A stretch of DNA of 50,513 nucleotides from a virus. Shown in pieces: positions 4,629 to 50,513 of this stretch. Numbering within the stretch: the stretch's first letter is position 1; each line of letters starts with the position of its first letter. The notes beneath the pieces were generated by a model. That model saw nothing but the letters and a program-made list of their open reading frames with translations, was not told the DNA's origin and made no database searches. The stretch spans positions 1-50,513 of IMG/VR virus record IMGVR_UViG_3300002098_000051; one strand, 5' to 3'. Position numbers and translations under genes: made by a program.

Positions 4629-4792
4629 AACATCATTCCATTTTTAAAATCATCATAAGTCGTCGTGTCGAGAGAATTTCTTAAAAAACGATACGGATGA
4701 TAAGACCTAAATATATTCTGTTTTATCAAAAGCCATTCTGTTATTCCTTTTTCTTTTATAAATAATTTAAGATAATAAAACGGAGGTATCAT
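4598..4792 (-). CDS. hypothetical protein (64 aa)
   Basis: ATGA start/stop overlap with the upstream methyltransferase gene (4789-4792) suggests translational coupling. Confidence 0.45.
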   Translation of the reverse strand: MIPPFYYLKLFIKEKGITEWLLIKQNIFRSYHPYRFLRNSLDTTTYDDFKNGMMLWAKMQRKIK

Positions 4793-5679
4793 TTTTTAAA
4801 GATTAAAACATTTTGGTGAACTTTTACTAATTTACCTGATTTGAAAGTTTTACCGACACGCAACATTGCCGTGCCGATTGCGTTTAATAAAATAGCCTCG
4901 TTATAAAATGCCATCCCGACGGATCGGAACGCCTTGATTGTATCTGGTACAAACCCAATATATCCTCCGTCCTTGCCGCGCACCTCGCCTACAACAAAAA
5001 CTGCATAGCCCCCTGGCTTTAATAGATCGCACGCGCGTTTAATTATTGATCGGTAAGCGATCATAAACTCTGGATATTTCATGTTGCTAATATCGCCAGA
5101 TATTTCACTATACACCTCTAAGTCGGCGTAAGGTGGACAACTAAAAACCATATCATATTCTTCAAGGAAAAGGTCTTCTAAAACCAGGTTACTATCGCCG
5201 ACAATCCAGTTTGGTAAATTGTTAGGTACGATCACGTGAGCTTGCTCGTAGTTTGAGTCTATCTGCTCTTGTCTTATATCTATACCAGTGTATTTATACC
5301 CTAAATAGTTAGCAACTATTCCTCTGACGCTTCCTCCGGCGAAGGGATCAATAATAGAACCACCCTCTGGGCAAAACCAACGGTAAAGAACTTCGGTAAG
5401 CGCTGGGTCGAAGATAGATGTTTCGCTCATTGTTCCTTCGCGTTTTTTACCATACCGCTCGTCCTTAAAGAAATTAGTGGTATCATATACAACTGCATCT
5501 CGGCCCACCTCGCTCTTAATGCCTAACGTCCCCCACAAACGTTTACGCGCCTGCCACGATCCGCTTTTCGTATCAAGCACTGAAAATGGTGGCTCTATAA
5601 ATTTATCGCGAAGCAATTCATTCTCCTGAATTGGTTCGCCAAATATATCAATTCTCGATACTTTCTGGCTCTCTGACAT
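4789..5679 (-). CDS. SAM-dependent amino-methyltransferase (N6-A/N4-C type), paralog A
   Basis: Motif I (IDPFAGGSVRG) lies about 65 aa upstream of motif IV, which here reads SCPPYADLEVY (usual form is (D/N/S)PPY). Close paralog of 7312..8187. Confidence 0.72.
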   Translation of the reverse strand: MSESQKVSRIDIFGEPIQENELLRDKFIEPPFSVLDTKSGSWQARKRLWGTLGIKSEVGRDAVVYDTTNFFKDERYGKKREGTMSETSIFDPALTEVLYRWFCPEGGSIIDPFAGGSVRGIVANYLGYKYTGIDIRQEQIDSNYEQAHVIVPNNLPNWIVGDSNLVLEDLFLEEYDMVFSCPPYADLEVYSEISGDISNMKYPEFMIAYRSIIKRACDLLKPGGYAVFVVGEVRGKDGGYIGFVPDTIKAFRSVGMAFYNEAILLNAIGTAMLRVGKTFKSGKLVKVHQNVLIFKK

Positions 5680-7315
5680 TAAATCCTAATTTAATTAGTT
5701 CCTCTTTAATTTTATCGCGACACATTTTCTTATACCATCCGTTATTTCTTTTTCCCTTTAATTTACACCATTCCCGCACCTTGTCGTATGCGTTGGCGAA
5801 AATATTTTCAAGCTGCAACTCGTTTAACTCGTTTTCGGATATGGTATTACGGGCGTATTGAGCAATATGTTTTATCATCTCGAACATTGAAAAATACTCG
5901 GAGCGATCCTTAAAAAATGCTATTGTCTTATTTACGTCAATCCCTTTGGTTACTAAAATGAAGTCTGCCGGTACAATATCAACCTCTGCCGCCTTAATTG
6001 GAAATACAAATCCGCAAGGTATTTCGCCAAACAAATCATCGTCGACATAACCTTTACAAACCCTGGCGGCGGCATGGTTAATAAAATCGCATTCCGGACA
6101 ATCCTTAACAGGCGCGACGCCGTTGCCAGGTTTTTTAGGGTTAAAGAATATATCCTCCCAGTCGCGATCATCGCACCAATCGCCGTGAGCCATTGCATTT
6201 CCGCCGAGATCAATAATAGTGAAGTGTTCCTTAAACGTGCCGTCCGAATATAGGCAAGGCCTGCCGCCGCGCCCACACTTTTGAAGCCACAGCGTAACCG
6301 ACAGCATAGCAGAATTAACGATTACCGTTTGTATTGTAGGGTCGTCGAAACCGGTTGTGGCTATACCCACATTATTAAGGATCGCGTCCGGTGTATTGCG
6401 TAGCCATTTAAAGCAATCGGCACGCCACGAATCGTAGTCTCCTTTCCACCCGTCCGGTAACCAGGAATACTCCCCAGGCTGAGGAATATTTTCTCCATCA
6501 AGGTGGCGCGAATTAAAACCGGCCTCGATAAATTGCTGATTAACAAGTTTCGAGTGAGCTATGTTGGCGTTAAAGCAAAGAGTTTTCGTGCCGATGCTAT
6601 ATTTTATATATGCATCGATTGTGTTTTGCACTTGCTTCTTTTTGCTAAACATATCTCCCATAAATGACTCATCGAACTCTCCGTTCGTTATCTTTAAGTC
6701 ATTACGATTTATATTTTTGATCGCGTAAGTTCTATTCTGAACCAGGTAGCGGTCGCGCTTAGTTTTATTTAGCTCAATTAATTCCCTTATTTGCGGCCCA
6801 CATACTATATCCTCGAAGTGGTTCTTCATAGGGTCTTTCCGTGTTGATGCAATAGGCGTCGCGGTAAAACCGAGCAAGATAACGTCGTTAAAATATGGGA
6901 ATAGTTTTTTAAAGTTTCCTATGTGCGCCTCGTCTACTATAACCATTCCGACGTCCTTGATATACGGAGCGAAGTTTGGTTTTTTGATCCGGTTGTGCAG
7001 CGTCTCGACCATTGCAACATATACGTCGGCGAAACTTACTTCTTTAATCTTAGCCTGAACGGATGAACTGACTATCTCATACCATTTGTAAAGCGTTTTC
7101 CTGGTTTGATTTAAAAGCTCATCGCGATGCACCATTATAAAAACTCGCTTACCGCTTTTTTTGACATACCTATCAACGATTGTAGAAAATATAACAGTCT
7201 TACCGCCGCCGGTTGCAAGCTGGCAAACAATACGCTTTTTCCCTGCCGCTATTTTCTTAGCGACATTTAAACAATACCCCTCCTGATATGCCTCTAACTC
7301 GTTTACTGCGATCAT
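5648..7315 (-). CDS. SF2 DEAH-box helicase (ResIII-like) with a C-terminal Cys-rich segment
   Basis: Has motif I (QLATGGGKT), motif II (VIVDEAH), motif III (GFTATP) and motif VI (QKCGRGGR). The tail contains CPECDF...AARVCKG. Confidence 0.85.
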   Translation of the reverse strand: MIAVNELEAYQEGYCLNVAKKIAAGKKRIVCQLATGGGKTVIFSTIVDRYVKKSGKRVFIMVHRDELLNQTRKTLYKWYEIVSSSVQAKIKEVSFADVYVAMVETLHNRIKKPNFAPYIKDVGMVIVDEAHIGNFKKLFPYFNDVILLGFTATPIASTRKDPMKNHFEDIVCGPQIRELIELNKTKRDRYLVQNRTYAIKNINRNDLKITNGEFDESFMGDMFSKKKQVQNTIDAYIKYSIGTKTLCFNANIAHSKLVNQQFIEAGFNSRHLDGENIPQPGEYSWLPDGWKGDYDSWRADCFKWLRNTPDAILNNVGIATTGFDDPTIQTVIVNSAMLSVTLWLQKCGRGGRPCLYSDGTFKEHFTIIDLGGNAMAHGDWCDDRDWEDIFFNPKKPGNGVAPVKDCPECDFINHAAARVCKGYVDDDLFGEIPCGFVFPIKAAEVDIVPADFILVTKGIDVNKTIAFFKDRSEYFSMFEMIKHIAQYARNTISENELNELQLENIFANAYDKVREWCKLKGKRNNGWYKKMCRDKIKEELIKLGFNVREPESIEN

Positions 7316-8187
7316 TTTACTTTCTTAAATATCAGTACGTTTTGGTGTATCTTAACCAGCTTTTTGTTTTTCATATTTCCATTCGCGCGCATAGATGCGG
7401 AGGCTATTGCGTTAAGTAATATCGCCTCGTTATAAAATTGCATACCGGCGTCGCGGAAAGCGTCGATAGTATCAGGCACGAAGCCTATGTAATTACCATT
7501 TTTATCTCTAACCTCGCCTACTACGAATATCGCATAACCGCCGTCGTTAAGTTGGCGACATGCTTTATTTATTATTGATCGGTAAGATAAAAGAAACTCT
7601 GGATAATTCATATTACTAATATCCCCTGGTAATTCCGAATACACCTCGAGATCGGCATAAGGCGGACAGGAAAATAAAAGATCAAAAGTATCAAATATTT
7701 CATCCAGAACTTTGTCGCTATCTCCGGTTAACCAGTTCGGCAGGTTATTAGGTACGATTACGCGAGCTTGCTCGTAATTGCTTTCGATCTGTTCGGGCCG
7801 GATGTCTATGCCGGTATATTTGTAGCCCAGGTAATTGGCCACAATGCCGCGCACGCTACCTCCGGCAAAGGGGTCTAAAATAGTACCACCCTCCGGACAA
7901 AACCAATGATAAAGAACTTCTGTAAGCGCAGGGTCAAAGATGGAAGTATTCAGTTTTGTGCTTTCTTTATCATTATACTCCTCTTTGTTAGTATAACTCG
8001 ACGTTCCCATCGAAAAGAGTTTACAATCCCTGCCCACCTCTGATTTGATCCCCAGAAGGCTCCACATCTTTTTGCGCTTTTGCCACGATCCGGTTTTCGT
8101 ATCTAAAATAGAGAACGGCGGTTCGATAAATTTATCCCTCAGGAGTTCGTTTTCCTCGATCTCCTGGCCCCATAAGTCTAAAGCCAT
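7312..8187 (-). CDS. SAM-dependent amino-methyltransferase (N6-A/N4-C type), paralog B
   Basis: Has LDPFAGGSVRG and SCPPYADLEVY. Collinear with 4789..5679 except for one ~27-aa divergent segment and the C-terminal ~20 aa. ATGA overlap with the helicase start. Confidence 0.72.
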   Translation of the reverse strand: MALDLWGQEIEENELLRDKFIEPPFSILDTKTGSWQKRKKMWSLLGIKSEVGRDCKLFSMGTSSYTNKEEYNDKESTKLNTSIFDPALTEVLYHWFCPEGGTILDPFAGGSVRGIVANYLGYKYTGIDIRPEQIESNYEQARVIVPNNLPNWLTGDSDKVLDEIFDTFDLLFSCPPYADLEVYSELPGDISNMNYPEFLLSYRSIINKACRQLNDGGYAIFVVGEVRDKNGNYIGFVPDTIDAFRDAGMQFYNEAILLNAIASASMRANGNMKNKKLVKIHQNVLIFKKVK

Positions 8188-8188
8188 A

Positions 8189-8455
8189 TTAAGAAGTATA
8201 TTCTACCTGTAAACGTTGAAAGGTTGGGCGAGTATGTTTTGTCGGATAGTGCCCTTTTGCCTCCCTTTGTTCTACTATCGATTTAACAGCGTAGGACGCG
8301 CCGCCGATGCCGGTTATAACCGATCCGACTATTTTAGGCGTTTCGTTTCGCTGTACGATAACATCGATAGTACCTTTTTTCATTCCTGATTGAGTTCCGT
8401 CCGGTACAAAGTTGCTGCGGAGTTCTTCGGCCCTCCAGTTGATTACTTCTGCCAT
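8189..8455 (-). CDS. hypothetical protein (88 aa)
   Basis: ORF in operon context, 1 nt upstream of the methyltransferase B start. Confidence 0.5.
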   Translation of the reverse strand: MAEVINWRAEELRSNFVPDGTQSGMKKGTIDVIVQRNETPKIVGSVITGIGGASYAVKSIVEQREAKGHYPTKHTRPTFQRLQVEYTS

Positions 8456-8486
8456 TTTTTTTTGTTTATTTATTGTGATTAAAAAA

Positions 8487-9608
8487 TTAGTTTTTAGATA
8501 ATGTCATTAATGGCATAAGCAAATAAGTATCCGCACCGCCAGTTGTTTTAAATATAAACGCTTTATTATAAAACCCGTCGTTATAAAATATAGCGTTAGA
8601 CTTTAAATTACGGAATATTTTTTGAGCCATTGAACCATTAAGAGTAAACGAAAAGTTATTTACCTGGTGATTCTTTACTTCTATTACCGGCGACTTCCCG
8701 CGCTTGCCAAAACCTTCGTCTGCGGCTTTCAACTCTAACGAGTTGCCGGTTAAAGTAAACTCAATCTGGTTAGTGACGTTATTGGCAACCGTCAATAACA
8801 GACTTATAGATTGCTGGATCGCTTTAAGATCAACAGAAAAGTATCCTTGATACTCTGGAAGTATCATTCTGTAATCAGGATATTTAGCATCAACCAACCT
8901 GGAGTATATGTTTGTCTTTTCGGTCTTGAAAATAATATATGCCGAGTTTATAGAAATCTTTATCTCTCCTTTAATTTCGAAAGCAGATAATTTCTTTATA
9001 GTTTTCCCTGGCACAATAGCCTGGTGATTACATGTCGATTCAAGTTCGAATAAAAACGATCCTTCGCTAAGATACAAACTCGACATATCGCACCCTACAA
9101 CATACAACTCGCCGCCAATAATATCAAATAATACTCCGGTTATAGACGGACGAAGAGTATCTGAGGAAGTGAAATCTGCAGCTATTTTTAATTTATCAAG
9201 AAAACCGTCCATAACCTCGAATTCTATATCGTTAACGTCGTCCGGCAGTTGCGGGAAAAGATCTGGAGACTCCGATTGATATTCAAAATTACCGGCAATG
9301 GTATTTAAAAACAACTTGAAAGTCGCTTCGTCATATTCTATAGATACCGGCATTTCCGGCAACTTAGATAAAACATCATTCATGTCCTTTATAGACCAAA
9401 GGAAACAAAAGTCGCCGGAAGCGTTGGCGCAATCGGCTTTCGTTTCTATACTCGTTTCTGTGTCTGTAGATTGAAAAATAACCTCTTTACCTCTTATGGT
9501 TATTTTTGCATAATCCAGTATCGGTATAATAGAAGCGCCTCCCGAAACGGCGGAGCATTTTGCCGATAAACTCTTTAACGTGTTTACTGATATAGTTAGT
9601 TTGTGCAT
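8487..9608 (-). CDS. dnaN: DNA polymerase III beta sliding clamp homolog
   Basis: At 373 aa the length is typical of DnaN. The N-terminus has PILDYAKI...FQSTDTETSIE. The middle has RPSITGVLFD...YVVGCD and RLVDAKYPDYRMILPE. The C-terminus has YLLMPLM. Confidence 0.82.
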   Translation of the reverse strand: MHKLTISVNTLKSLSAKCSAVSGGASIIPILDYAKITIRGKEVIFQSTDTETSIETKADCANASGDFCFLWSIKDMNDVLSKLPEMPVSIEYDEATFKLFLNTIAGNFEYQSESPDLFPQLPDDVNDIEFEVMDGFLDKLKIAADFTSSDTLRPSITGVLFDIIGGELYVVGCDMSSLYLSEGSFLFELESTCNHQAIVPGKTIKKLSAFEIKGEIKISINSAYIIFKTEKTNIYSRLVDAKYPDYRMILPEYQGYFSVDLKAIQQSISLLLTVANNVTNQIEFTLTGNSLELKAADEGFGKRGKSPVIEVKNHQVNNFSFTLNGSMAQKIFRNLKSNAIFYNDGFYNKAFIFKTTGGADTYLLMPLMTLSKN

Positions 9609-9796
9609 TGTTCCATCATTTTTTTAATGTAAGCAATATTTTTTTTATGCTCCTTTTCCAGTATAGATATCATGTCCTGGCACTGATCTTTAGAAAGGTT
9701 AGAAGCAAAACCTTTAAAGAATAACCATAGACGCTGGCCTATCGGCTGACTTTTCATCAGCTTTCGCAATGCCGCGAGATTTAAGATCGTTTTCAT
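9596..9796 (-). CDS. hypothetical protein (66 aa; start revised to ATG at 9796)
   Basis: The track start at 9820 is a TTG lying inside the TACGTTTG promoter box. The first ATG (MKTILNL...) sits 21 nt after that box. Confidence 0.5.
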   Translation of the reverse strand: MKTILNLAALRKLMKSQPIGQRLWLFFKGFASNLSKDQCQDMISILEKEHKKNIAYIKKMMEQCTN

Positions 9797-9817
9797 TAAT
9801 GTTGTTGTATTGTATGG

Positions 9818-9893
9818 CAAACGTACTATTTAAAAGTCAATAAAAAAATTTTTAAAAATAATTTTTTTTATTCCGGAAAGTTTTTTACTTTTG
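9818..9893. promoter_or_regulatory. bidirectional promoter module A: TAnnTTTG box (minus), 33-bp A/T-tract element, TAnnTTTG box (plus)
   Basis: Reading left to right: minus-strand TACGTTTG (9818-9825); a 10-nt spacer; GTCAATAAAAAAATTTTTAAAAATAATTTTTTT (9836-9868); a 17-nt spacer; plus-strand TACTTTTG (9886-9893). The 33-mer recurs in inverted orientation at 41708-41740. Confidence 0.7.
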
Positions 9894-9897
9894 GTTT

Positions 9898-10062
9898 ATG
9901 ATTTTACTGGCATTTATTTCAATCTTTGGTTTTCTCGGAGCGTATGTTAATCTTCGCAGTTACGAGTCAAAGACTAAATATCCTGGCATCGTTAAATTCG
10001 CCTCCAATCTTAAAAGCGGTAAGCAAAAAAGTTTTCTTAATCAGTTAAAAATAAAAAAATGA
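9898..10062 (+). CDS. small membrane protein (54 aa), not in ORF track
   Basis: ATG lies exactly 4 nt after the TACTTTTG box. N-terminal hydrophobic helix (ILLAFISIFGFLGAYV). The stop overlaps the SSB start as ATGA (10059-10062). Confidence 0.5.
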   Translation: MILLAFISIFGFLGAYVNLRSYESKTKYPGIVKFASNLKSGKQKSFLNQLKIKK

Positions 10063-10511
10063 GCTTAGAAGTAACAGGTAAGTTATTAGTAAAGTACGAC
10101 ACGCAGCAAGTGAGCGAAAAGTTCAAGAAGCGTGAATTCGTTCTCGAATTGGCCGAAGAGATTAACGGCAACATTTACACCAACTTCGCAAAGATGCAAC
10201 TGGTGCAAAACAAATGCGACATACTGGATCGCTTCAGCGAAGGATCGCAGGTGAAGGTTAGCTTTAACATCAAAGGGAACAAATGGGAGCGCGATGGTAA
10301 AGTTAATTATATTACCAACCTCGACGCCTGGCGCGTAGAGGCTGCAGGAGCGAGCGGATCGCAAACAACGCAAAACACACACCAACCTCCCGCTCGTAAT
10401 AATAACGCGGCACCACCTCCTGCTTACGGCACATCTCCTAATATAATACAGACAGCCAACGGGCCAGTAGATTTAAACTCACCCGAAACAATCGACGACC
10501 TTCCGTTTTAA
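10059..10511 (+). CDS. ssb: single-stranded DNA-binding protein (OB-fold, DUF3127-like)
   Basis: N-terminal OB-like region (GKLL...REFVLE...QVKVSFNIKG). The Gln/Pro/Ala-rich linker and acidic tip IDDLPF are typical of SSB C-termini. Confidence 0.75.
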   Translation: MSLEVTGKLLVKYDTQQVSEKFKKREFVLELAEEINGNIYTNFAKMQLVQNKCDILDRFSEGSQVKVSFNIKGNKWERDGKVNYITNLDAWRVEAAGASGSQTTQNTHQPPARNNNAAPPPAYGTSPNIIQTANGPVDLNSPETIDDLPF

Positions 10512-10536
10512 TTACCTTTTTAATCTATAAATAAAA

Positions 10537-11973
10537 ATGAGCGAAAACACAAAGTTACAGCTATTACTTGCTCCGCAAGTACCGACTCTCGAAAGATTGA
10601 TGTCGTTAAACATGCCACAGAATGTGGATGTTAAAGCAATGGTTATGCAGGAATTAGAATACCTGAATTACGCTGCGGTATTTAAACCGGAAATACTTGA
10701 TTGTCTTCCCGAAACCATCGTAGCCGGAGTAAAGACCGCGCTAAAGAAAAACCTGACGCTCGATCCGGATGCAGGTTTACTTTATATCACCACTCGTAGT
10801 GTAAAGATTGGTGGTGCGTGGTTTAAAGCTCTCGAGGTTAAACCGACGTCTGATGGTAAAATATCGATAGGCCGTCAAACTGGACGCCTACTTGATATAC
10901 AGCGTCCGTGGGTGACTTATATGGCTGACGGCCGTGTAGATACCGCAAACGTTAAAATACAAGTACCGGCGTTTGATGAACATGCTCGCCCGTGCGCCCG
11001 TTGGGAAACAGTCACCCTCGGTTATACACAATTCGACCGCTTGCGTTATTTTTCACACAAAGATAAAAGCAGGAATAAAGAAGGTTTATCTCAAGACGAT
11101 CACGCGCGTCTTATTTGCGCGAACCATTTATACACTTCTCATTTAGGGTGGATAGACCCAGAGTTTGCTTGCGCAAAAGTTATCAATGCAGCAATGAAGC
11201 GCAAAGGGACGAACCAAAACGAAAACAGGGTTTTGAATCTTGTTAATAATGATGAGCGTTTTGTTGATCCTAAAATAGAAAACGAGATACAGAATGACGA
11301 TTGGCAAGATGCCGAAGAGTTGGTAACAACCGCACCTCCTGTTTATCAAGCAGCGCCACCCCCACCTACACCACCGCCACCGGCTGCTAATAATGCCGTG
11401 CCTCCGCCTCCTCCACCTCCTCCTGCCGCGCAACCGGAAGCAAATACTCCTGAAGCTATTATAGCTATCGCGAAACCTTTGATCCTGGCTGCAAAGACAG
11501 TTCCGGAATTGAATAAGCTATGGAAGGATAATAAAAAAGCGTGGGACGGAATCGATATCATAAAAGATATGATAAAAGAAATTCGCGAAAAGATCAAAAA
11601 TACTCCAGCCGGTAGTGATACTCCCCCTCTGCCTCCTCCACCTCCTCCTGCCGCGCCATCTCAGCCAGTAGTGGAAGCCGACTTTAACATAGATGCTCCG
11701 CCGCCGCCGCCAGCCGCCACAGGCGTTGATTATGAAATGTATGGTCTCATATTCGCTTGCAACACCGCTGACGAGATACGCCAGCTTTATACCTTGCACA
11801 AAGATCGCGTAAACAAAGATGAGGCGCTGAAGAAATTCCTTACCGACTCCGGAAAGGAACTTGCAAATAGCAGGCCGAAGTTGGCTATACCGGTACAAAT
11901 GCCAGGCGCAATAGATATATCAAAAGAAGTGGTGAGTATGCCACCAGTAGTGGTTGACGATCCTTTGATATAA
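10537..11973 (+). CDS. possible RecT-like single-strand annealing protein with a proline-rich C-terminal extension
   Basis: Sits next to SSB. The N-terminal ~230 aa resemble RecT-family layout (LPETIVAGVKTALKKNLTLDP...LYITTRS...SIGRQTGRL). The C-terminal half has three poly-Pro tracts. Confidence 0.4.
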   Translation: MSENTKLQLLLAPQVPTLERLMSLNMPQNVDVKAMVMQELEYLNYAAVFKPEILDCLPETIVAGVKTALKKNLTLDPDAGLLYITTRSVKIGGAWFKALEVKPTSDGKISIGRQTGRLLDIQRPWVTYMADGRVDTANVKIQVPAFDEHARPCARWETVTLGYTQFDRLRYFSHKDKSRNKEGLSQDDHARLICANHLYTSHLGWIDPEFACAKVINAAMKRKGTNQNENRVLNLVNNDERFVDPKIENEIQNDDWQDAEELVTTAPPVYQAAPPPPTPPPPAANNAVPPPPPPPPAAQPEANTPEAIIAIAKPLILAAKTVPELNKLWKDNKKAWDGIDIIKDMIKEIREKIKNTPAGSDTPPLPPPPPPAAPSQPVVEADFNIDAPPPPPAATGVDYEMYGLIFACNTADEIRQLYTLHKDRVNKDEALKKFLTDSGKELANSRPKLAIPVQMPGAIDISKEVVSMPPVVVDDPLI

Positions 11974-11975
11974 TT

Positions 11976-11990
11976 TGGCACGGTAATTGC
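11976..11990 (+). promoter_or_regulatory. sigma-54 (-24/-12) type promoter motif
   Basis: TTGGCACGgtaaTTGCT matches YTGGCACG-N4-TTGCW. The 36 nt at 11976-12011 are identical to 32225-32260. ATG at 12015. Confidence 0.7.
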
Positions 11991-12014
11991 TATATATCAT
12001 GAAAACGATATAAA

Positions 12015-13998: not shown

Positions 13999-14010
13999 TA
14001 TCTATATCTT

Positions 14011-14025: not shown

Positions 14026-14051
14026 TTTACATCAGTATAAAACAAAAAAAC

Positions 14052-14600
14052 ATGAACAACGCAGTGAAAAACTTTAGCCGTTACACCTTCCACGCAGATG
14101 GCCGTGTAACCAATACCGCAAGCGGTAAAGACATTAAGATCGACGCAAAGAGCAACGATACAAACCAATTTTACTCCCTGCTTAACGATGAGGGGAAGAA
14201 GGTTTCGGTTAAATCCTCCGTCGTAAAAGCCGAAGCCGGAAAAGCGGTTCCAGCTAAGAAGGCCACTCCAGCCAAAAAAGCTGCTCCGGCAAAGAAAGCA
14301 GCAGCTCCAAAGAAGGCCGCGCCAGCTAAGAAGGCCGCAGCTCCGAAGAAGGCAGCTAAAAAAATAGAAGACGGCGAAGGTAAAAGCCATAAGCCCACCC
14401 TCGATTACGCGAAGGCCCAGGAGATCAGAAAGAAATATTCCAAAGGGGCTAAGAAAGCAGCCCTGGCCGAAGAATACGGCGTAAGCAATGGCACGATATA
14501 TTTTGTGCTTAACTACACCAACTACCCTCTCAAGGATGGCGACACGGCTTACGTTCCAATCCCAGAAGGATGGGTTCCTCGCAGCGAAAGAGTTAAATAA
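14052..14600 (+). CDS. histone H1-like Lys/Ala/Pro-repeat DNA-binding protein with a C-terminal HTH-like segment (start revised to 14052)
   Basis: Central PAKKATPAKKAAPAKKAAAPKKAAPAKKAAAPKKAAKK repeats. C-terminal ...AALAEEYGVSNGTIYFVLNY resembles an HTH. The track start at 14022 lies inside the promoter motif. Confidence 0.55.
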   Translation: MNNAVKNFSRYTFHADGRVTNTASGKDIKIDAKSNDTNQFYSLLNDEGKKVSVKSSVVKAEAGKAVPAKKATPAKKAAPAKKAAAPKKAAPAKKAAAPKKAAKKIEDGEGKSHKPTLDYAKAQEIRKKYSKGAKKAALAEEYGVSNGTIYFVLNYTNYPLKDGDTAYVPIPEGWVPRSERVK

Positions 14601-32158: not shown

Positions 32159-32166
32159 CAAATGTA
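32159..32166 (-). promoter_or_regulatory. TAnnTTTG (-7 type) promoter box for the capsid gene
   Basis: Minus strand reads TACATTTG, about 90 nt upstream of the ATG at 32069. The identical octamer occurs at 36697-36704 and 41751-41758. Confidence 0.55.
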
Positions 32167-32224: not shown

Positions 32225-32239
32225 TGGCACGGTAATTGC
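32225..32239 (+). promoter_or_regulatory. sigma-54 (-24/-12) type promoter motif, antisense to the late operon
   Basis: CTGGCACGgtaaTTGCT. The 36 nt at 32225-32260 equal 11976-12011. Confidence 0.7.
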
Positions 32240-32261
32240 TATATATCATGAAAACGATATC

Positions 32262-36696: not shown

Positions 36697-36704
36697 CAAA
36701 TGTA
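36697..36704 (-). promoter_or_regulatory. TAnnTTTG (-7 type) promoter box
   Basis: Minus strand reads TACATTTG, about 50 nt upstream of the ATG at 36644. Confidence 0.55.
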
Positions 36705-41376: not shown

Positions 41377-41679
41377 TTATTCTATTATGCTGGTTACGAT
41401 TAATAATACACCATTAGCGGCGTTATTGGCGACAAGTTTTGGGACGCAGTTTATTTTAATCTTACCGCCTACAACAAACAACGCATCGTGCGACCGCTTT
41501 ACTGGATCAAAATCTATAGATACCTGCGTTTCGTTGGCAAGGTTGCAAGATGGTATCTTGTCAATTACTTCACTATAACAGGTAACGGTATGTATTTTAT
41601 CTAAACCAGTTACTTTCGCTTTGCGCCGGTAGTGTATGTTATCATCCACTATGTCGGTTATTTCTATTTCTGCAATCAT
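41377..41679 (-). CDS. hypothetical protein (100 aa; start revised to ATG at 41679)
   Basis: The track N-terminus (41680-41742) is the A/T promoter element. The ATG at 41679 lies exactly 4 nt after the TACATTTA box. Confidence 0.5.
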   Translation of the reverse strand: MIAEIEITDIVDDNIHYRRKAKVTGLDKIHTVTCYSEVIDKIPSCNLANETQVSIDFDPVKRSHDALFVVGGKIKINCVPKLVANNAANGVLLIVTSIIE

Positions 41680-41683
41680 GGCA

Positions 41684-41758
41684 TAAATGTATAAACATTT
41701 TTGTTCTAAAAAAATTATTTTTAAAAATTTTTTTATTGACACGAAGTGTTTACATTTG
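41684..41758. promoter_or_regulatory. bidirectional promoter module B (inverted copy of module A)
   Basis: Reading left to right: minus-strand TACATTTA (41684-41691); a 16-nt spacer; the reverse complement of the 33-mer GTCAATAAAAAAATTTTTAAAAATAATTTTTTT (41708-41740); a 10-nt spacer; plus-strand TACATTTG (41751-41758). Confidence 0.7.
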
Positions 41759-41774
41759 TAAAAAATAAAACAAC

Positions 41775-42674
41775 ATGAACAAAAGCATTCAAATCAAACT
41801 GAAAGGAGGCGGCACGTTTACGCTAACATCGGCTGGCCTCGCAAAACTACACGCTGCCGGTAGAACGCTCGCGGCGTTCGGAGCAAACGAAATAGATAAA
41901 GACTTACCAATTCGCGAAGGTCTTATAGACGACGAAACTTTTGGCATCAAGTGGGCTGAGGTTACGATGGGTCAGGCTTTGAAAGAAGCTAACAAATTTC
42001 GTGATTACTTTACTAAAGTAGAAAGCCTCCGTGAGTTATCAAAGTATGTGCATGTCGGCGCAATAGCTCCGCACGAAGATATTGCCGACGCAATGGTGGA
42101 CAAAGTAGAGGCCCTGGTTGTTAACGCAGTGGCTTTCGATAAGCATAAAGACGGCCTGCGTTTATTTGTTGAAAACGTAGAGAGTATTCTTTTACCAGGA
42201 TCGGTACACGGCAGCATAAAGAATGATGCTGACGGTTTGCCATTTGGCAACATGATTGATTTACTTAAACAAGTCGACGCCAACGTTAAGCAAAGACTTA
42301 TCGATAAGGATCGTGTAAGTAAAGAGCTTTCTGATGAGCGTAACATGCTTACCGAGTTTTTGTTAACCACCATGAATATATCGAAAGATATTACAGATCA
42401 CTCCACTACGCACGGCGCAGCGATGAACCTTATGCTGGATCAGCGCAGAAAGATCGCAAACCTCGACGAAAAGCTCACCGAGGTAGCTACGCATCGCGAT
42501 AAACTAGAGCAGCGCCTTACCGATATTACAAAAGAACACACTGCCTTATCTAATACGCTACAAAGTTTCGACAAGCTCCTTGAGCTTACCCTGGCGCACG
42601 TACTTAGCAACCGCGCAAACTTTACAGATAGCCAAAAGAAAACGCTTCTCGCTATTGCTGTATTCAACGATTAG
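41775..42674 (+). CDS. hypothetical helical protein (299 aa)
   Basis: First gene from the plus-strand box of module B. No motif recognised. Confidence 0.55.
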   Translation: MNKSIQIKLKGGGTFTLTSAGLAKLHAAGRTLAAFGANEIDKDLPIREGLIDDETFGIKWAEVTMGQALKEANKFRDYFTKVESLRELSKYVHVGAIAPHEDIADAMVDKVEALVVNAVAFDKHKDGLRLFVENVESILLPGSVHGSIKNDADGLPFGNMIDLLKQVDANVKQRLIDKDRVSKELSDERNMLTEFLLTTMNISKDITDHSTTHGAAMNLMLDQRRKIANLDEKLTEVATHRDKLEQRLTDITKEHTALSNTLQSFDKLLELTLAHVLSNRANFTDSQKKTLLAIAVFND

Positions 42675-43962: not shown

Positions 43963-44259
43963 TCAAAGCTCGGGCAAATCGTACCAGCCACGCAACGCAT
44001 GTGCACAATCGCTTAGATAGTTTATTCTGCCGTCCTGAACAAAAGTATGGCACAATGTCTTCTCCGGAGTGCCGGTTTGTGGGTTAGCAGGATGAAATAC
44101 ACGTATAGACGGAGAAAATGTTGGCTTATCTATATCATTATTAAAACGCCAGCACGGACTTTCCTTCGGATCGGTATTAACTGCGTGGCTATTGCCACAA
44201 CCTGGGCAATCGAACAGATATGTCCCTTTAACGTTTTGTATTTCTCTAACCTTTGCTAT
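43963..44259 (-). CDS. Cys/His-motif protein (CPGC...C...CH...DCAH; DUF6527-like from memory) lacking a canonical start codon
   Basis: The minus-strand frame is open from 44277 to TGA at 43965-43963. It reads ...IIAKVREIQNVKGTYLFDCPGCGNSHAVNTDPKESPCWRFNNDIDKPTFSPSIRVF...LCHTFVQDGRINYLSDCAHALRGWYDLPEL. There is no usable ATG/GTG/TTG (the only one is a TTG 76 codons in). An in-frame ATA at 44259 sits 4 nt after the TACTTTTA box. Confidence 0.5.
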   Translation of the reverse strand: MAKVREIQNVKGTYLFDCPGCGNSHAVNTDPKESPCWRFNNDIDKPTFSPSIRVFHPANPQTGTPEKTLCHTFVQDGRINYLSDCAHALRGWYDLPEL

Positions 44260-44263
44260 AATG

Positions 44264-44336
44264 TAAAAGTAAATTTTTTAAGTCAAAATAATTATAAAAA
44301 TAATTTTTTTAGAATAGATCGTTTTATTTATCTTTG
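44264..44336. promoter_or_regulatory. bidirectional promoter module C (partial copy of the A/T element)
   Basis: Reading left to right: minus-strand TACTTTTA (44264-44271); a 10-nt spacer; GTCAA...AAAAATAATTTTTTTAG (44282-44312); an 18-nt spacer after the T-run; plus-strand TATCTTTG (44329-44336), which overlaps the sigma-54-type motif. Confidence 0.6.
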
Positions 44337-44349
44337 GCATACTATTTGC
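44335..44349 (+). promoter_or_regulatory. sigma-54 (-24/-12) type promoter motif
   Basis: TTGGCATactatTTGCA followed by TTATATCA. ATG at 44374. Confidence 0.6.
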
Positions 44350-44373: not shown

Positions 44374-44790
44374 ATGAAACAACTAATAATAAAAGGTATA
44401 GAACTGGATTTGTTTAACTATACGGACGGCCAGGGTTTTTCTAAAAGCATAACCGATGTCGATTTGTTGGTTAGCATATTAACCGATCATAAACACGTTA
44501 CCGAAACCGTTTTGCGTAACATGGTTAACGCTATGCAATACGTTAAGGATAATAAAATGCGCAGATACATAATTCTTTTCCTTCACTTTACTAATCCGCG
44601 TAAAGGTGGCGTGCATAAGCTGCAAAAGTGTAACCAGACATTTATACGCGGCGGCGTAAAAACGCCTACCAACTGCAACCAAACCAATCTTTTTGAAAAG
44701 CCATTTAGTATATCAAGGTATAACGATTGTTTTTTACCTGGCGCAGATACTTTCCATGTTTATAACGGTAGCGATTTAGTTCGCGCTTGA
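44374..44790 (+). CDS. hypothetical protein (138 aa)
   Basis: ORF after the promoter motifs. No domain recognised. Confidence 0.55.
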   Translation: MKQLIIKGIELDLFNYTDGQGFSKSITDVDLLVSILTDHKHVTETVLRNMVNAMQYVKDNKMRRYIILFLHFTNPRKGGVHKLQKCNQTFIRGGVKTPTNCNQTNLFEKPFSISRYNDCFLPGADTFHVYNGSDLVRA

Positions 44791-47762: not shown

Positions 47763-47845
47763 GATATCCCTCTTATATCTTTGTGTAAAGGTAGTAGAAA
47801 AATAAGATTATAAAAAATTTTGCAGACATATTATGAAAATTGAGC

Positions 47846-48095
47846 GTAGTAAGTGTAGTAAGCATGGAAAAAGTGGTTACTACACTTTTTCGGCACATAA
47901 AGCGTTGATAATCTTTCTATTATATATTATGTAGTAAGAGTAGTAAGTGTAGTAAGTAGAATTCGAATAACACAATGAGTGAGGAAAAAGATGCGTCGAC
48001 CCCTAATTAGGAGTGTCGTCGAGAAATTGTCTGTTTTCTACGCCTAATGAAACTCGTTACTACGCTTACTACGTCAGTACAGAAATGCCTACTAC
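47846..48095. repeat. iteron-like 8-mer array GTAGTAAG / CTTACTAC with 9-bp phasing
   Basis: Direct copies at 47846, 47855, 47931, 47940 and 47949. Inverted (G/C)TTACTAC or CCTACTAC copies at 47876, 48056, 48065 and 48088. GTAGTAA(47855)...TTACTAC(47883) can form a hairpin. Confidence 0.85.
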
Positions 48096-48204
48096 GCCGT
48101 GGATCGGGCCAGGCCTAACCCCTAATAACGCCTATACCTAATAGGTAGCCAACCCAAATAAATCGGCAAAACCGGCGAAATAATTCGGTGCCCTAATGCC
48201 TAAT
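48002..48204. repeat. CCTAAT repeat cluster including the 10-bp palindrome CCTAATTAGG
   Basis: Palindrome at 48002-48011. CCTAAT at 48043, 48121, 48137, 48192 and 48199, and CCTAAC at 48114. Confidence 0.8.
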
Positions 48205-48219
48205 TAGTATATTCGCTCT

Positions 48220-50094: not shown

Positions 50095-50101
50095 TAATTG
50101 T
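50087..50101 (+). promoter_or_regulatory. sigma-54 (-24/-12) type promoter motif
   Basis: TTGGCATgataaTTGT followed by ATATTAATCA, with the -12 element GT rather than GC. ATG at 50127. Confidence 0.55.
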
Positions 50102-50126
50102 ATATTAATCATAAAAACAAACAAAC

Positions 50127-50513
50127 ATGAACAAGACACAAATTTTCAACTCTTATGTAGAGTTTCTGCAACGCGCCGACAAAAATATAAACGGCGTTAG
50201 TGTTTCTTTCTCGCAAAACAACGAACTGTACGAAGAAGAAAATGAAAAAAATGAAGGATGCTGGAATTGCAGCGATTGTAGCCGTTGTAGCGGTTGTAGC
50301 CGTTGTAACGGTTGTAGCGGTTGTAGTGATTGTAGCGGTTGTAGTGGTTGTAGCGGTTGTAGTGATTGTAGCGGTTGTAGCGGTTGTAACGGTTGTAACG
50401 GTTGTAGTGATTGTAGCCGTTGTAGCGATTGTAGTGATTGTAGCGGTTGTAGCGGTTGTAACGGTTGTAGTGATTGTAGCGGTTGTAGCGGTTGTAACGG
50501 TTGTAGTGATTGT
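50127..50513 (+). CDS. 5' part of junction-spanning gene: 44-aa acidic N-terminus, then (Cys-X-X)n repeats, running off the right edge
   Basis: ATG at 50127 follows an A-rich leader. Reads MNKTQIFNSYVEFLQRADKNINGVSVSFSQNNELYEEENEKNEG, then CWN CSD CSR CSG.... The 387 nt are exactly 129 codons, so frame +1 at base 1 continues it. Confidence 0.75.
   Translation, partial: MNKTQIFNSYVEFLQRADKNINGVSVSFSQNNELYEEENEKNEGCWNCSDCSRCSGCSRCNGCSGCSDCSGCSGCSGCSDCSGCSGCNGCNGCSDCSRCSDCSDCSGCSGCNGCSDCSGCSGCNGCSDC
50259..50513 (+). repeat. 9-bp-period tandem repeat array, right-edge part
   Basis: 28 units of TGY-NNN-NNN. The final 81 nt are identical to bases 1-81. Confidence 0.97.

What the first reader, a model, noticed from the sequence alone, without database searches (positions are those of the whole stretch)
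9818..9893. Conserved bidirectional promoter module built on a 33-bp A/T-tract element, present at three loci
GTCAATAAAAAAATTTTTAAAAATAATTTTTTT (9836-9868) recurs as an exact reverse complement at 41708-41740. A partial copy, GTCAA...AAAAATAATTTTTTTAG, lies at 44282-44312.

At all three loci the geometry is the same. An outward-facing TAnnTTT(G/A) box lies 10 nt from the GTCAA(T) end, and a second outward-facing box lies 16-18 nt beyond the T-run. The boxes are TACGTTTG/TACTTTTG, TACATTTG/TACATTTA and TACTTTTA/TATCTTTG.

The loci are the three divergence points of the genome (clamp operon vs SSB operon; RNase H operon vs 41775; 43963 ORF vs 44374). This looks like a reusable early-promoter cassette of the Bacteroidota sigma-A type with a phased A/T-tract (bent DNA or UP-like element, or an operator).
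Basis: partly seen in the sequence, partly recalled or inferred. Interest (0 to 1): 0.62.

Follow-up and report, generated by a model that had tools for sequence, protein, structure and literature searches.

The report
Two-faced UP-like bidirectional phage promoter
A phage of Bacteroidota bacteria uses the same roughly 80-bp cassette three times: two back-to-back host-type promoters that share one pure A/T stretch matching the classic polymerase-docking "UP element" on both strands. It is a neat but fairly ordinary way to drive divergent gene blocks strongly.

Summary
The sequence observation holds. The 33-mer is exact at 9836-9868 and inverted at 41708-41740 (0 expected by chance), and a 29-nt degenerate copy lies at 44282-44310. 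The three sites are the three longest pure A/T runs in the genome.

Outward TAnnTTTR boxes sit 10 nt from GTCAA in all three copies. On the other side they sit 16, 16 and 18 nt past the T-run.

The host is Bacteroidota, judged from primase relatives and the near-absence of Shine-Dalgarno motifs. The boxes therefore fit the sigma-A -7 element.

New here: the 33-mer holds the genome's only two perfect (15/15) matches to the E. coli UP-element consensus, and a 14/15 match on the other strand, at about -54..-33 and -58..-37 of the predicted starts. Three boxes lie exactly 4 nt before a start codon (ATG, ATG, ATA), which predicts leaderless mRNAs.

Corrections:
- At least five divergent junctions exist, not three.
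- The right-hand "box" at locus 3 overlaps a sigma-54-type TGGCAT-N5-TTGC promoter.
- Strong intrinsic bending is not predicted.
- "Early" timing is untested.

The only relative found (one 3.4-kb contig) keeps the architecture but not the sequence. No transcript data were available.

Verdict: probable shared-UP bidirectional promoter cassette, a new member of a known kind.

The parts
9818..9825 (-). Module A, GTCAA-side -7 box TACGTTTG. Predicted TSS is about 9813. It drives the 66-aa gene (ATG at 9796), the clamp and the replication/methylase block.
   Evidence: clamp phrog_947; the 66/74-aa gene is homologous to the L003 72-aa gene
9836..9868 (+). Module A 33-mer: GTCAA plus a pure A/T tract (A7 T5 A5 T A2 T7; the T-run continues to 9869). 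It holds UP-consensus matches of 14/15 on the + strand (9840-9861) and 15/15 on the - strand (9846-9867).
9886..9893 (+). Module A, T-run-side -7 box TACTTTTG, followed by GTTT and then ATG at 9898 (54-aa gene, then SSB). A leaderless transcript is predicted.
   Evidence: SSB phrog_4932
41684..41691 (-). Module B, T-run-side -7 box TACATTTA, followed by TGCC and then ATG at 41679 (100-aa gene, then the RNase H-like block). A leaderless transcript is predicted.
   Evidence: RVT_3
41708..41740 (-). Module B 33-mer, an exact inverted copy of 9836-9868.
   Evidence: A Logan contig from another sample ends inside it, as expected for a repeat longer than the assembly word.
41751..41758 (+). Module B, GTCAA-side -7 box TACATTTG. 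Predicted TSS is about 41763, 12 nt before ATG at 41775 (299-aa orphan protein).
44264..44271 (-). Module C, GTCAA-side -7 box TACTTTTA, followed by CATT and then ATA at 44259.
43963..44259 (-). DUF6527 gene (98 codons) with no ATG, GTG or TTG start. ATA sits exactly where the start codon sits in modules A and B.
   Evidence: PF20137, E=3e-15; the sequence is identical in an independent sample
44282..44310 (+). Module C, degenerate 29-nt copy: GTCAAAATAATTATAAAAATAATTTTTTT.
44329..44349 (+). Module C right side: TATCTTTG overlaps the sigma-54-type TGGCATactatTTGC, 24 nt before ATG at 44374.

Best explanation
Each module is a pair of back-to-back promoters for the host (Bacteroidota) primary-sigma RNA polymerase. 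Their upstream halves overlap in one shared A/T tract.

Layout, with TSSs placed 4 nt after each box:
- The two predicted starts are 82-85 bp apart, about 8 helical turns.
- Each promoter has its -7 box at -12..-5.
- Each has a T7 run on its own non-template strand at about -35..-29, where the weak Bacteroidota -33 element normally sits.
- Upstream of that lies an 'A-tract then T-tract, then A5' arrangement that matches the consensus UP element.
- The 33-mer therefore equals -23..-55 of one promoter and -29..-61 of the other.

Proposed mechanism: the alpha-subunit C-terminal domains dock in the narrow minor groove of the tract and raise polymerase recruitment in both directions.

Three of the six promoters start transcription on the start codon itself, giving leaderless mRNAs. 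At locus 3 the T-run side is mainly a sigma-54-type promoter.

What is shown: the repeats, the geometry, the A/T extremity, the UP-consensus match, the host phylum, and an intact alpha-CTD in host-like genomes.

What is inferred: the transcription starts, alpha-CTD dependence, promoter strength and early timing. The conserved GTCAA, at -27..-23 of one promoter only, is unexplained. It may be an extra contact or a regulator half-site.
For: - Exact 33-bp repeat with diverged spacers but retained boxes and spacing.
- The three longest A/T runs in the genome.
- The only two 15/15 matches in the genome to -59 NNAAAWWTWTTTTNNAAAANNN -38 lie in the 33-mer, with 14/15 on the other strand. They sit at -54..-33 and -58..-37. 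The consensus is quoted in PMC5664571.
- Only 0.3% of shuffles of the tract itself do as well on both strands.
- 'A-tract followed by T-tract' is the signature of optimised distal subsites (PMC3326320).
- The host is Bacteroidota. Primase relatives at 40-55% identity occur in Chitinophaga, Hanamia, Pedobacter and Pontibacter. Only 4 of 60 genes have an SD-like motif, and A at -3 occurs in 63%.
- In F. johnsoniae the -7 element spans T-12 to G-5, lies 4-5 nt from the TSS, has a weak -33 and has AT-rich upstream motifs (PMC6847099).
- Box-N4-start codon occurs at 9898, 41679 and 44259.
- Chitinophaga RpoA carries a clear alpha-CTD with the LSVRAFNCLK...RNFGQKSLSE motifs.
- Candidate promoter boxes upstream of the 16S rRNA genes of host-like genomes read A/T-rich upstream region, TTTG, N19, TAnnTTTG.
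- A Bacteroides phage promoter is reported to have 'UP elements' plus a -7 box (bioRxiv 10.1101/2025.03.18.644028).
- The relative L003 keeps TACTTTTG and a 13/15 UP-like tract at -57..-36 at the same junction.
- No phage RNA polymerase or sigma factor was found among about 40 proteins scanned.
Against:
- TAnnTTTG is not enriched genome-wide beyond about 1.4-fold.
- None of the six promoters has the canonical -33 TTTG; a T-run replaces it.
- Two boxes end in A instead of the near-invariant G, and one (TACGTTTG) has G at -9, which is rare in F. johnsoniae.
- The UP consensus is from E. coli and was chosen after seeing the sequence.
- On the GTCAA side the match lies 4-5 bp closer to the start than in E. 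coli.
- Exact 33/33 identity and the conserved GTCAA go beyond what a structural A/T element needs.
- Only one relative exists, it covers only one locus, and it lacks GTCAA.
Confidence: 0.6

Rival explanations
1. The element is an operator. The 33-mer (GTCAA plus A/T tract) would be the binding site of a sequence-specific or minor-groove-binding regulator that controls both flanking promoters. Candidates are the phage AKKA-repeat/HTH protein at 14052-14600 or a host nucleoid protein. This reading can coexist with the promoter reading.
For: 33/33 identity, and GTCAA kept in all three copies while the spacers diverged. The phage encodes a lysine-rich (P/A)AKKA-repeat protein with a weak HTH_7 match, a type expected to favour A/T minor grooves.
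Against: There is no inverted or direct partner for GTCAA in the module. The relative L003 has the A/T tract but no GTCAA. The IHF consensus WATCAANNNNTTR is not matched (by eye). The other long exact repeat in the genome is also a promoter cassette, so exact identity may simply reflect recent copying. No binding data exist.
Confidence: 0.15
2. The element is a replication origin or DNA-unwinding element. The extreme A/T tracts next to the replication genes would be melting sites activated by flanking transcription.
For: These are the most A/T-rich spots in the genome. Locus 1 lies between the clamp and SSB operons.
Against: There are three dispersed copies. No iterons lie beside them. The tract lies upstream of both promoters, so no transcript crosses it to form an R-loop. 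A separate 450-bp repeat-rich non-coding region at 47763-48219 is a better origin or pac candidate. GC skew gives no signal at the loci.
Confidence: 0.05
3. The inverted 33-mers are recombination sites. Exchange within them would invert the 31.8-kb segment between them while leaving every gene with its own -7 box.
For: The copies are exact and inverted, and each lies at a divergent junction, so both isomers would be viable.
Against: Contigs from other samples that span locus 1 (L005, L014) show only the window's arrangement. No recombinase was seen among the proteins scanned. The third copy does not fit this reading. Read-level tests were not possible.
Confidence: 0.03
4. The element is an architectural bend that serves the sigma-54-type promoter at locus 3, and has no specific role at the other two loci. 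Intrinsic curvature would replace IHF between an enhancer and the -24/-12 promoter.
For: At locus 3 the tract lies about 50-75 bp upstream of the predicted sigma-54-type start. Locus 3 has the highest predicted curvature of the three, at the 95th-99th percentile.
Against: Loci 1 and 2 have no TGGCA-N6-TTGC motif. The other eight or nine sigma-54-type sites lack such tracts. Predicted curvature is unexceptional.
Confidence: 0.07
5. The element is a neutral, recent duplication of low-complexity A/T sequence with no function of its own. The boxes would be the only functional parts.
For: Only identical genomes and one distant fragment are available, so constraint on the tract cannot be measured.
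Against: Spacers on both sides have diverged completely while the 33-mer is intact. The order of A and T is UP-like on both strands beyond composition. A differently spelled AnTn tract sits at the same place in the relative.
Confidence: 0.07

Closest known systems
UP element of E. coli rrnB P1 and the SELEX consensus (Estrem et al. 1998; quoted in PMC5664571; tract model in PMC3326320)
   Same: Matches of 15/15 and 14/15 to NNAAAWWTWTTTTNNAAAANNN. The tract shows an A-tract then T-tract (distal type) followed by A5 (proximal type). It lies at -58..-37 on the T-run side, within 1 bp of the E. coli position.
   Different: The host is Bacteroidota and the core promoter is a different type (-7 TAnnTTTG). 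One tract reads as an UP element on both strands and is shared by two divergent promoters. On the GTCAA side it lies 4-5 bp closer to the start. Alpha-CTD dependence is not tested.
Bacteroidota primary-sigma (sigma-ABfr) promoters, -33 TTTG / -7 TAnnTTTG (summarised in PMC6847099)
   Same: Six outward TAnnTTTR boxes. The box-to-start-codon spacing of exactly 4 nt at three of them equals the measured box-to-TSS distance. The upstream region is AT-rich.
   Different: There is no TTTG at -33; a T7 run sits there instead. Two boxes end in A and one has G at -9. TTGAC at -27..-23 has no counterpart in the described consensus.
Bacteroides phage promoter P_BfP1E6 (Whitaker et al. 2017, from my own knowledge; described in bioRxiv 10.1101/2025.03.18.644028 as having 'UP elements' and a -7 consensus)
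   Same: A phage-borne strong host-type promoter in Bacteroidota that combines a -7 box with upstream A/T 'UP elements'.
   Different: That promoter is described as a single promoter, not a bidirectional cassette reused three times. The sequences were not compared here because that paper is not held.
Overlapping divergent promoters of plasmid pLS20 (PMC4207663), and phage early promoters with upstream A-tracts such as T4 early promoters (the latter from my own knowledge)
   Same: Back-to-back promoters in a compact regulatory region with upstream A/T tracts.
   Different: These are sigma-70/sigma-A promoters of Proteobacteria or Firmicutes, and the pLS20 switch works through a repressor and looping. 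Only the abstract of PMC4207663 was seen, and no sequence comparison was made.

Membership tests
Bacteroidota sigma-A (-33/-7) promoter | -7 element TAnnTTTG (T-12 A-11 .. T-8 T-7 T-6 G-5) | tested here: met
   Four boxes match fully: TACGTTTG, TACTTTTG, TACATTTG and TATCTTTG. Two end in A: TACATTTA and TACTTTTA. Consensus from PMC6847099.
Bacteroidota sigma-A (-33/-7) promoter | -33 element TTTG about 19-20 nt upstream of the -7 box | tested here: not met
   A T7/T8 run without G occupies that position in all six promoters. TTG of TTGAC is only 12 nt from the box. Candidate boxes upstream of host-like 16S rRNA genes do show TTTG-N19. The -33 is reported as weak in F. johnsoniae.
Bacteroidota sigma-A (-33/-7) promoter | Transcription starts 4-5 nt after the box | not testable with these tools
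Indirect support: a start codon lies exactly 4 nt after the box at 9898, 41679 and 44259.
Bacteroidota sigma-A (-33/-7) promoter | The host belongs to Bacteroidota | tested here: met
   Primase relatives at 40-55% identity are found almost only in Bacteroidota genomes. The primase carries a BT4734-like N-terminal domain, and the relative's SSB-like gene carries DUF3127. SD-like motifs are nearly absent and A at -3 is frequent.
UP element (alpha-CTD binding site) | A/T-rich sequence matching NNAAAWWTWTTTTNNAAAANNN | tested here: met
   15/15 and 14/15 in the 33-mer. These are the only perfect matches in the genome. Only 0.3% of tract shuffles do as well on both strands.
UP element (alpha-CTD binding site) | Position about -59 to -38 relative to the start | tested here: inconclusive
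   The matches lie at -58..-37 or -57..-36 (T-run side) and at -54..-33 (GTCAA side), relative to predicted rather than mapped starts.
UP element (alpha-CTD binding site) | The host alpha subunit has a C-terminal domain with the DNA-binding determinants | tested here: met
   PF03118 is present in three host-like genomes. Chitinophaga RpoA reads LSVRAFNCLK...RNFGQKSLSE and aligns with solved alpha-CTDs. The mapping to E. coli residues R265, N268, N294, G296, K298 and S299 comes from my own knowledge.
UP element (alpha-CTD binding site) | Stimulates transcription in an alpha-CTD-dependent, factor-independent way | not testable with these tools
   Needs in vitro transcription or reporter assays.
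Sigma-54 (-24/-12) promoter (locus 3, right side only) | TGGCAC-N5-TTGC with GG-N10-GC spacing, upstream of a gene on the same strand | tested here: met
   TGGCATactatTTGC at 44335-44349, 24 nt before ATG at 44374. It is one of six strict plus-strand matches against 0.18 expected.
Sigma-54 (-24/-12) promoter (locus 3, right side only) | An enhancer-binding AAA+ activator is available | not tested
   None was seen among about 40 phage proteins scanned. The host was not examined.
Intrinsically bent, helically phased A-tract DNA | A-tracts repeated at about 10.5 bp giving exceptional predicted curvature | tested here: not met
   Only two AnTn units, about 12 bp apart. Wedge-model curvature is at the 90th-99th percentile and not among the top 12 peaks. 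This is my own implementation with parameters recalled from Bolshoy 1991 and De Santis.
Intrinsic terminator / hairpin | A stable stem-loop followed by a T-run | tested here: not met
   The loci lie between divergent genes. DNA folds are no better than shuffles (z = +1.0, -1.7, -0.3), and no G+C stem adjoins the tract.
Sigma-70 type -35/-10 promoter | TTGACA, 16-18 nt, TATAAT | tested here: not met
   The scanner finds none at locus 1. TTGAC-N17 is followed by CCATAC at locus 1, TAAAAA at locus 2 and CATTAT at locus 3, which is inconsistent.

The most novel reading that the evidence does not exclude
The shared A/T tract may be a regulatory switch as well as a docking pad. The two divergent polymerases would have to use the same roughly 13-20 bp alpha-CTD landing site, because the proximal subsites coincide when the starts are 84-85 bp apart. 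That would couple the two promoters. A phage-encoded minor-groove binder could then occupy the tract and GTCAA, shutting off both host-sigma-A promoters at once as the phage moves to its sigma-54-type programme. The candidate is the AKKA-repeat/HTH protein at 14052-14600, itself behind a sigma-54-type promoter.
Probability: 0.08. Interest if true: 0.65.

Novelty: new member of a known kind. Interest (0 to 1): 0.42.

Why it matters
- It would give a compact bidirectional promoter part (76 bp box to box) for Bacteroidota outside the gut Bacteroides (Chitinophagia, Sphingobacteriia), where genetic tools are scarce.
- It suggests that the UP-element grammar defined in E. coli carries over nearly letter for letter to a phylum whose core promoter elements are very different.
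- Together with the 36-bp sigma-54-type cassette, it shows that the only long exact non-coding repeats in this phage are promoter cassettes. This points to copy-and-paste of promoters as a way phage regulatory circuits are built.
- The box-N4-start-codon pattern predicts leaderless mRNAs in a phylum that lacks Shine-Dalgarno pairing, including one that begins with AUA. Both predictions are easy to test.

Tried and rejected
- Searches for the 33-mer elsewhere found nothing: exact in IMG/VR, and at up to 3 mismatches in 5 plus 401 Bacteroidota genomes.
- Searches for relatives:
  - No phage in the GenBank phage set resembles 8000-12000.
  - The clamp search gave only one 42%-identical fragment (L003/L004) plus identical copies.
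  - The 299-aa protein has no homologue.
  - The closest RNase H-like relative is 36% identical.
  - Primase-bearing Bacteroidota contigs carry only host-type DnaN.
  - Comparative evidence is therefore limited to locus 1.
- The half-module pattern TTTTTATTGAC-N10-TAnnTTTG gave 32 IMG/VR hits. Several are clear sigma-70-type TTGAC-N17-TATAAT promoters of low-GC phages and none is kin. This showed that the TTGAC-N17 reading had to be considered, and it fits only 1-2 of the 3 loci.
- No tRNA or Rfam family lies in the window.
- Hairpin, terminator and sigma-70 readings were rejected.
- A strong static bend was rejected.
- IHF-site reading: GTCAA plus its context does not fit WATCAANNNNTTR (by eye).
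- Whitaker 2017 and Estrem 1999 are not held.

Full report
**1. What the window is**

The window is a complete 50,513-bp IMG/VR virus record with direct terminal repeats. Identical pieces occur in several other metagenomes (L005, L014, L070, L071, L077).

It is otherwise an orphan:
- There is no DNA match among GenBank phages.
- The best clamp relative is 42% identical, on a 3.4-kb Logan contig (L003).
- The 299-aa protein next to locus 2 has no homologue at all.

The host is a member of Bacteroidota:
- The primase (BT4734-like N domain, PriCT_2, VapE) has relatives at 40-55% identity almost only in Chitinophaga, Hanamia, Pollutibacter, Pedobacter, Mucilaginibacter, Pontibacter and Weeksellaceae genomes.
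- Only 4 of 60 genes have GGAG or GAGG upstream, and A at -3 occurs in 63% of genes. This is the Shine-Dalgarno-less, Kozak-like pattern described for the phylum (PMC6847099).
- No phage RNA polymerase or sigma factor was seen among about 40 proteins scanned.

**2. The observation**

The 33-mer is exact at 9836-9868 (+) and 41708-41740 (-). No other copy exists at up to 3 mismatches, and none is expected by chance.

The third copy (44282-44310) is 29 nt long. It keeps GTCAA and AAAAATAATTTTTTT but is 4 nt shorter and differs in the middle. It is closest to locus 2, with 20 nt exact and 56 nt at 75% identity.

The geometry, oriented with GTCAA on the left:
- An outward TAnnTTTR box lies exactly 10 nt left of GTCAA in all three copies.
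- Another lies 16, 16 and 18 nt right of the end of the T-run.
- Shuffling the flanks gives a joint chance of 3e-14 for these positions, and 2e-7 for any outward box within 30 nt.
- The spacers are not alike: CTATTTAAAA, AACACTTCGT and AATTTTTTAA on the left. What is kept is the boxes, the spacing and the tract.

The box alone is weak evidence, since TAnnTTTG occurs 62 times against 45 +/- 6 in shuffles.

The three loci are the three longest pure A/T runs (34, 31 and 27 bp) and the top three A/T-rich windows at every scale tried. Outside the tandem-repeat gene at the genome ends, the two longest exact dispersed repeats are both promoter-like cassettes. They are a 36-bp sigma-54-type unit (11976 and 32225) and this 33-mer.

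- The genome has at least five divergent junctions. The extra ones are 36644/36799 and 47762/48220-48480, and neither has the element.
- The right-hand box at locus 3 (TATCTTTG, 44329-44336) overlaps TGGCATactatTTGC (44335-44349). That motif is one of six strict TGGCA[CT]-N5-TTGC sites. All six are on the plus strand and sit 20-35 nt before a start codon, against 0.18 expected. The same TATCTTTGGCAC occurs at 14005 without an A/T module.

**3. What it is**

In F. johnsoniae the -7 element spans T-12 to G-5 and lies 4-5 nt from the start. The -33 element is weak and AT-rich motifs lie upstream (PMC6847099). Placing the starts 4 nt after each box gives:

| Module | Predicted TSSs | Distance apart |
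|---|---|---|
| A | 9813 (-), 9898 (+) | 85 bp |
| B | 41679 (-), 41763 (+) | 84 bp |
| C | 44259 (-), 44341 (+) | 82 bp |

That is about eight helical turns, so the two polymerases sit back to back on one face of the helix.

In both directions a T7 run on the non-template strand falls at about -35..-29, where the -33 element belongs. The 33-mer therefore covers -23..-55 of the GTCAA-side promoter and -29..-61 of the T-run-side promoter.

Three boxes are followed by exactly 4 nt and then a start codon:
- TACTTTTG-GTTT-ATG (9898)
- TACATTTA-TGCC-ATG (41679)
- TACTTTTA-CATT-ATA (44259)

These predict leaderless mRNAs. The third heads a real gene (DUF6527, E=3e-15, above Pfam's cut-off). That gene has no ATG, GTG or TTG start, and its sequence is identical in an independent sample.

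**4. The A/T tract as an UP element**

I scanned the genome with the consensus -59 NNAAAWWTWTTTTNNAAAANNN -38 (Estrem 1998, as quoted in PMC5664571).

- The only two perfect 15/15 matches lie in the two 33-mers. They are on the strand that points to the GTCAA-side promoter, at -54..-33.
- The other strand scores 14/15 at -58..-37 or -57..-36 for the T-run-side promoter, within 1-2 bp of the E. coli position.
- Even with its pure-A/T composition kept, only 0.3% of shuffles of the tract do as well on both strands.
- The tract reads as A7T5 then A5, or A8-TTATTTTT then A5 on the other strand. This is the 'A-tract followed by T-tract' distal pattern plus a proximal A-tract (PMC3326320).
- Locus 3 scores lower, at 13 and 12.
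- Other candidate sigma-A promoters in the phage score 10 or less. They include TACATTTG before the capsid gene at 32159 and a canonical TTTG-N18-TACATTTG at 36697.

Host-like genomes have the reading head. RpoA of a Chitinophaga carries an alpha-CTD with the LSVRAFNCLK and RNFGQKSLSE motifs.

Candidate promoter boxes upstream of the 16S rRNA genes of Hanamia and Pollutibacter read A/T-rich upstream region, TTTG, N19, TAnnTTTG. The phage module therefore imitates what look like the host's strongest promoters, apart from the missing G at -33.

A Bacteroides phage promoter in common use is described as having 'UP elements' and a -7 consensus.

**5. The relative**

L003 has the same divergent junction. 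On one side lie the 72-aa gene (36% identical to the 9596-9820 product) and the clamp. On the other lie a small gene and the DUF3127 SSB.

Its intergenic region reads TAGGTTTG (bottom strand), then 46 nt of AnTn tracts (AAATTATTATTTTTT, AAAAAAAAATTTTTT, ATTTT..), then TACTTTTG. The SSB-side box is identical to the window's, and an UP-like match of 13/15 lies at -57..-36.

There is no GTCAA and no sequence identity in the tract. The architecture is conserved but the spelling is not. This favours a structural (minor-groove) reading over a sequence-specific operator, although it rests on one comparison.

**6. Rivals**

- **Operator.** GTCAA is kept in all three copies and the 33/33 identity exceeds what an UP element needs. 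The phage also encodes a (P/A)AKKA-repeat protein with a weak HTH_7 match that could favour such DNA. Against this, GTCAA has no partner half-site, is absent from the relative, and does not fit an IHF site. The reading can coexist with the promoter reading.
- **Origin or unwinding element.** There are three copies, no iterons, and the tract lies upstream of both promoters. A better candidate region exists at 47763-48219.
- **Inversion sites.** Contigs from other samples show only the window's arrangement at locus 1. A Logan contig simply breaks inside the repeat, as a word-based assembler would.
- **Bent DNA.** My wedge-model calculation puts the loci at the 90th-99th percentile, not among the top peaks.
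- **Hairpin, terminator and sigma-70 promoter.** All rejected. TTGAC-N17 is followed by a passable -10 hexamer at only one or two of the loci.

**7. Limits**

- No transcript or binding evidence exists.
- 'Early' timing is inferred only from the flanking genes (clamp, SSB, helicase, methylases, RNase H-like).
- The UP consensus comes from E. coli and was applied after seeing the sequence.
- The curvature parameters were recalled from memory.

**8. Verdict**

This is a real, non-random, thrice-used module. It is most likely a pair of back-to-back host sigma-A promoters sharing a two-faced UP-like A/T tract (confidence about 0.6). One side of the third copy is taken over by a sigma-54-type promoter.

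It is a new member of a known kind (UP-assisted phage promoters for host polymerase). Its tidy, reusable bidirectional design and predicted leaderless starts are cheap to test.

Noticed in passing
832, 11976, 13923, 14011, 32225, 36762, 44335, 44799, 46526, 50087 (all + strand): A family of sigma-54-type TGGCA(C/T)-N5-TTGC motifs, six strict matches against 0.18 expected. Each lies 20-35 nt before a plus-strand start codon and is followed by a conserved TATATCA block. No phage AAA+ activator was seen among the proteins scanned.
   Followed up: partly
43963-44259 (-): A DUF6527 gene (Pfam E=3e-15) with no ATG, GTG or TTG start. ATA lies exactly 4 nt after a -7 box, where ATG lies in the sister modules. 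The sequence is identical in an independent sample, so this is not an assembly slip. It suggests translation from a 5'-terminal AUA, or an inactive gene.
   Followed up: partly
1095, 20158, 26966, 27749 (besides 9898, 41679, 44259): Seven real gene starts have a TAnnTTTR box 4-5 nt upstream, roughly ten times my rough chance estimate. Leaderless transcripts from internal promoters may be a general habit of this phage.
   Followed up: partly
14052-14600 (+): A protein with a (P/A)AKKA histone-H1-like repeat block followed by a weak HTH_7-like domain, behind a sigma-54-type promoter. It is a candidate A/T-DNA binder.
   Followed up: no
11976-12011 and 32225-32260: An exact 36-bp duplicate of a sigma-54-type promoter plus leader. 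It is the longest exact dispersed repeat in the genome, and the second copy is antisense within the structural block.
   Followed up: partly
14026-14059, 41749-41782, 50101-50134: Leader and start regions (TTTACATnnGTAnAAAAnAAAAnAACATGAACAA) are alike at three genes, one behind module B and the others behind sigma-54-type motifs. Leaders as well as promoters appear to be copied.
   Followed up: no
L070 1-30 (= window 41737-41708): A Logan contig from SRR6214538 ends 30 nt into the 33-mer, which is the k-1 overlap of a 31-mer assembly graph. The repeat fragments short-word assemblies of this phage.
   Followed up: yes
L073, L074, L075 (upstream of 16S rRNA genes of Pollutibacter, Hanamia and Pedobacter): Candidate rRNA promoters read A/T-rich upstream region, TTTG, N19, TA(C/T)(C/T)TTTG, often as tandem pairs about 110-125 nt apart. 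They are a useful reference for strong promoters in these hosts.
   Followed up: partly
4789-5679 and 7312-8187 (-): Two paralogous N6/N4-type methyltransferase genes (70-76% DNA identity over about 500 nt) flank an SF2 helicase.
   Followed up: no
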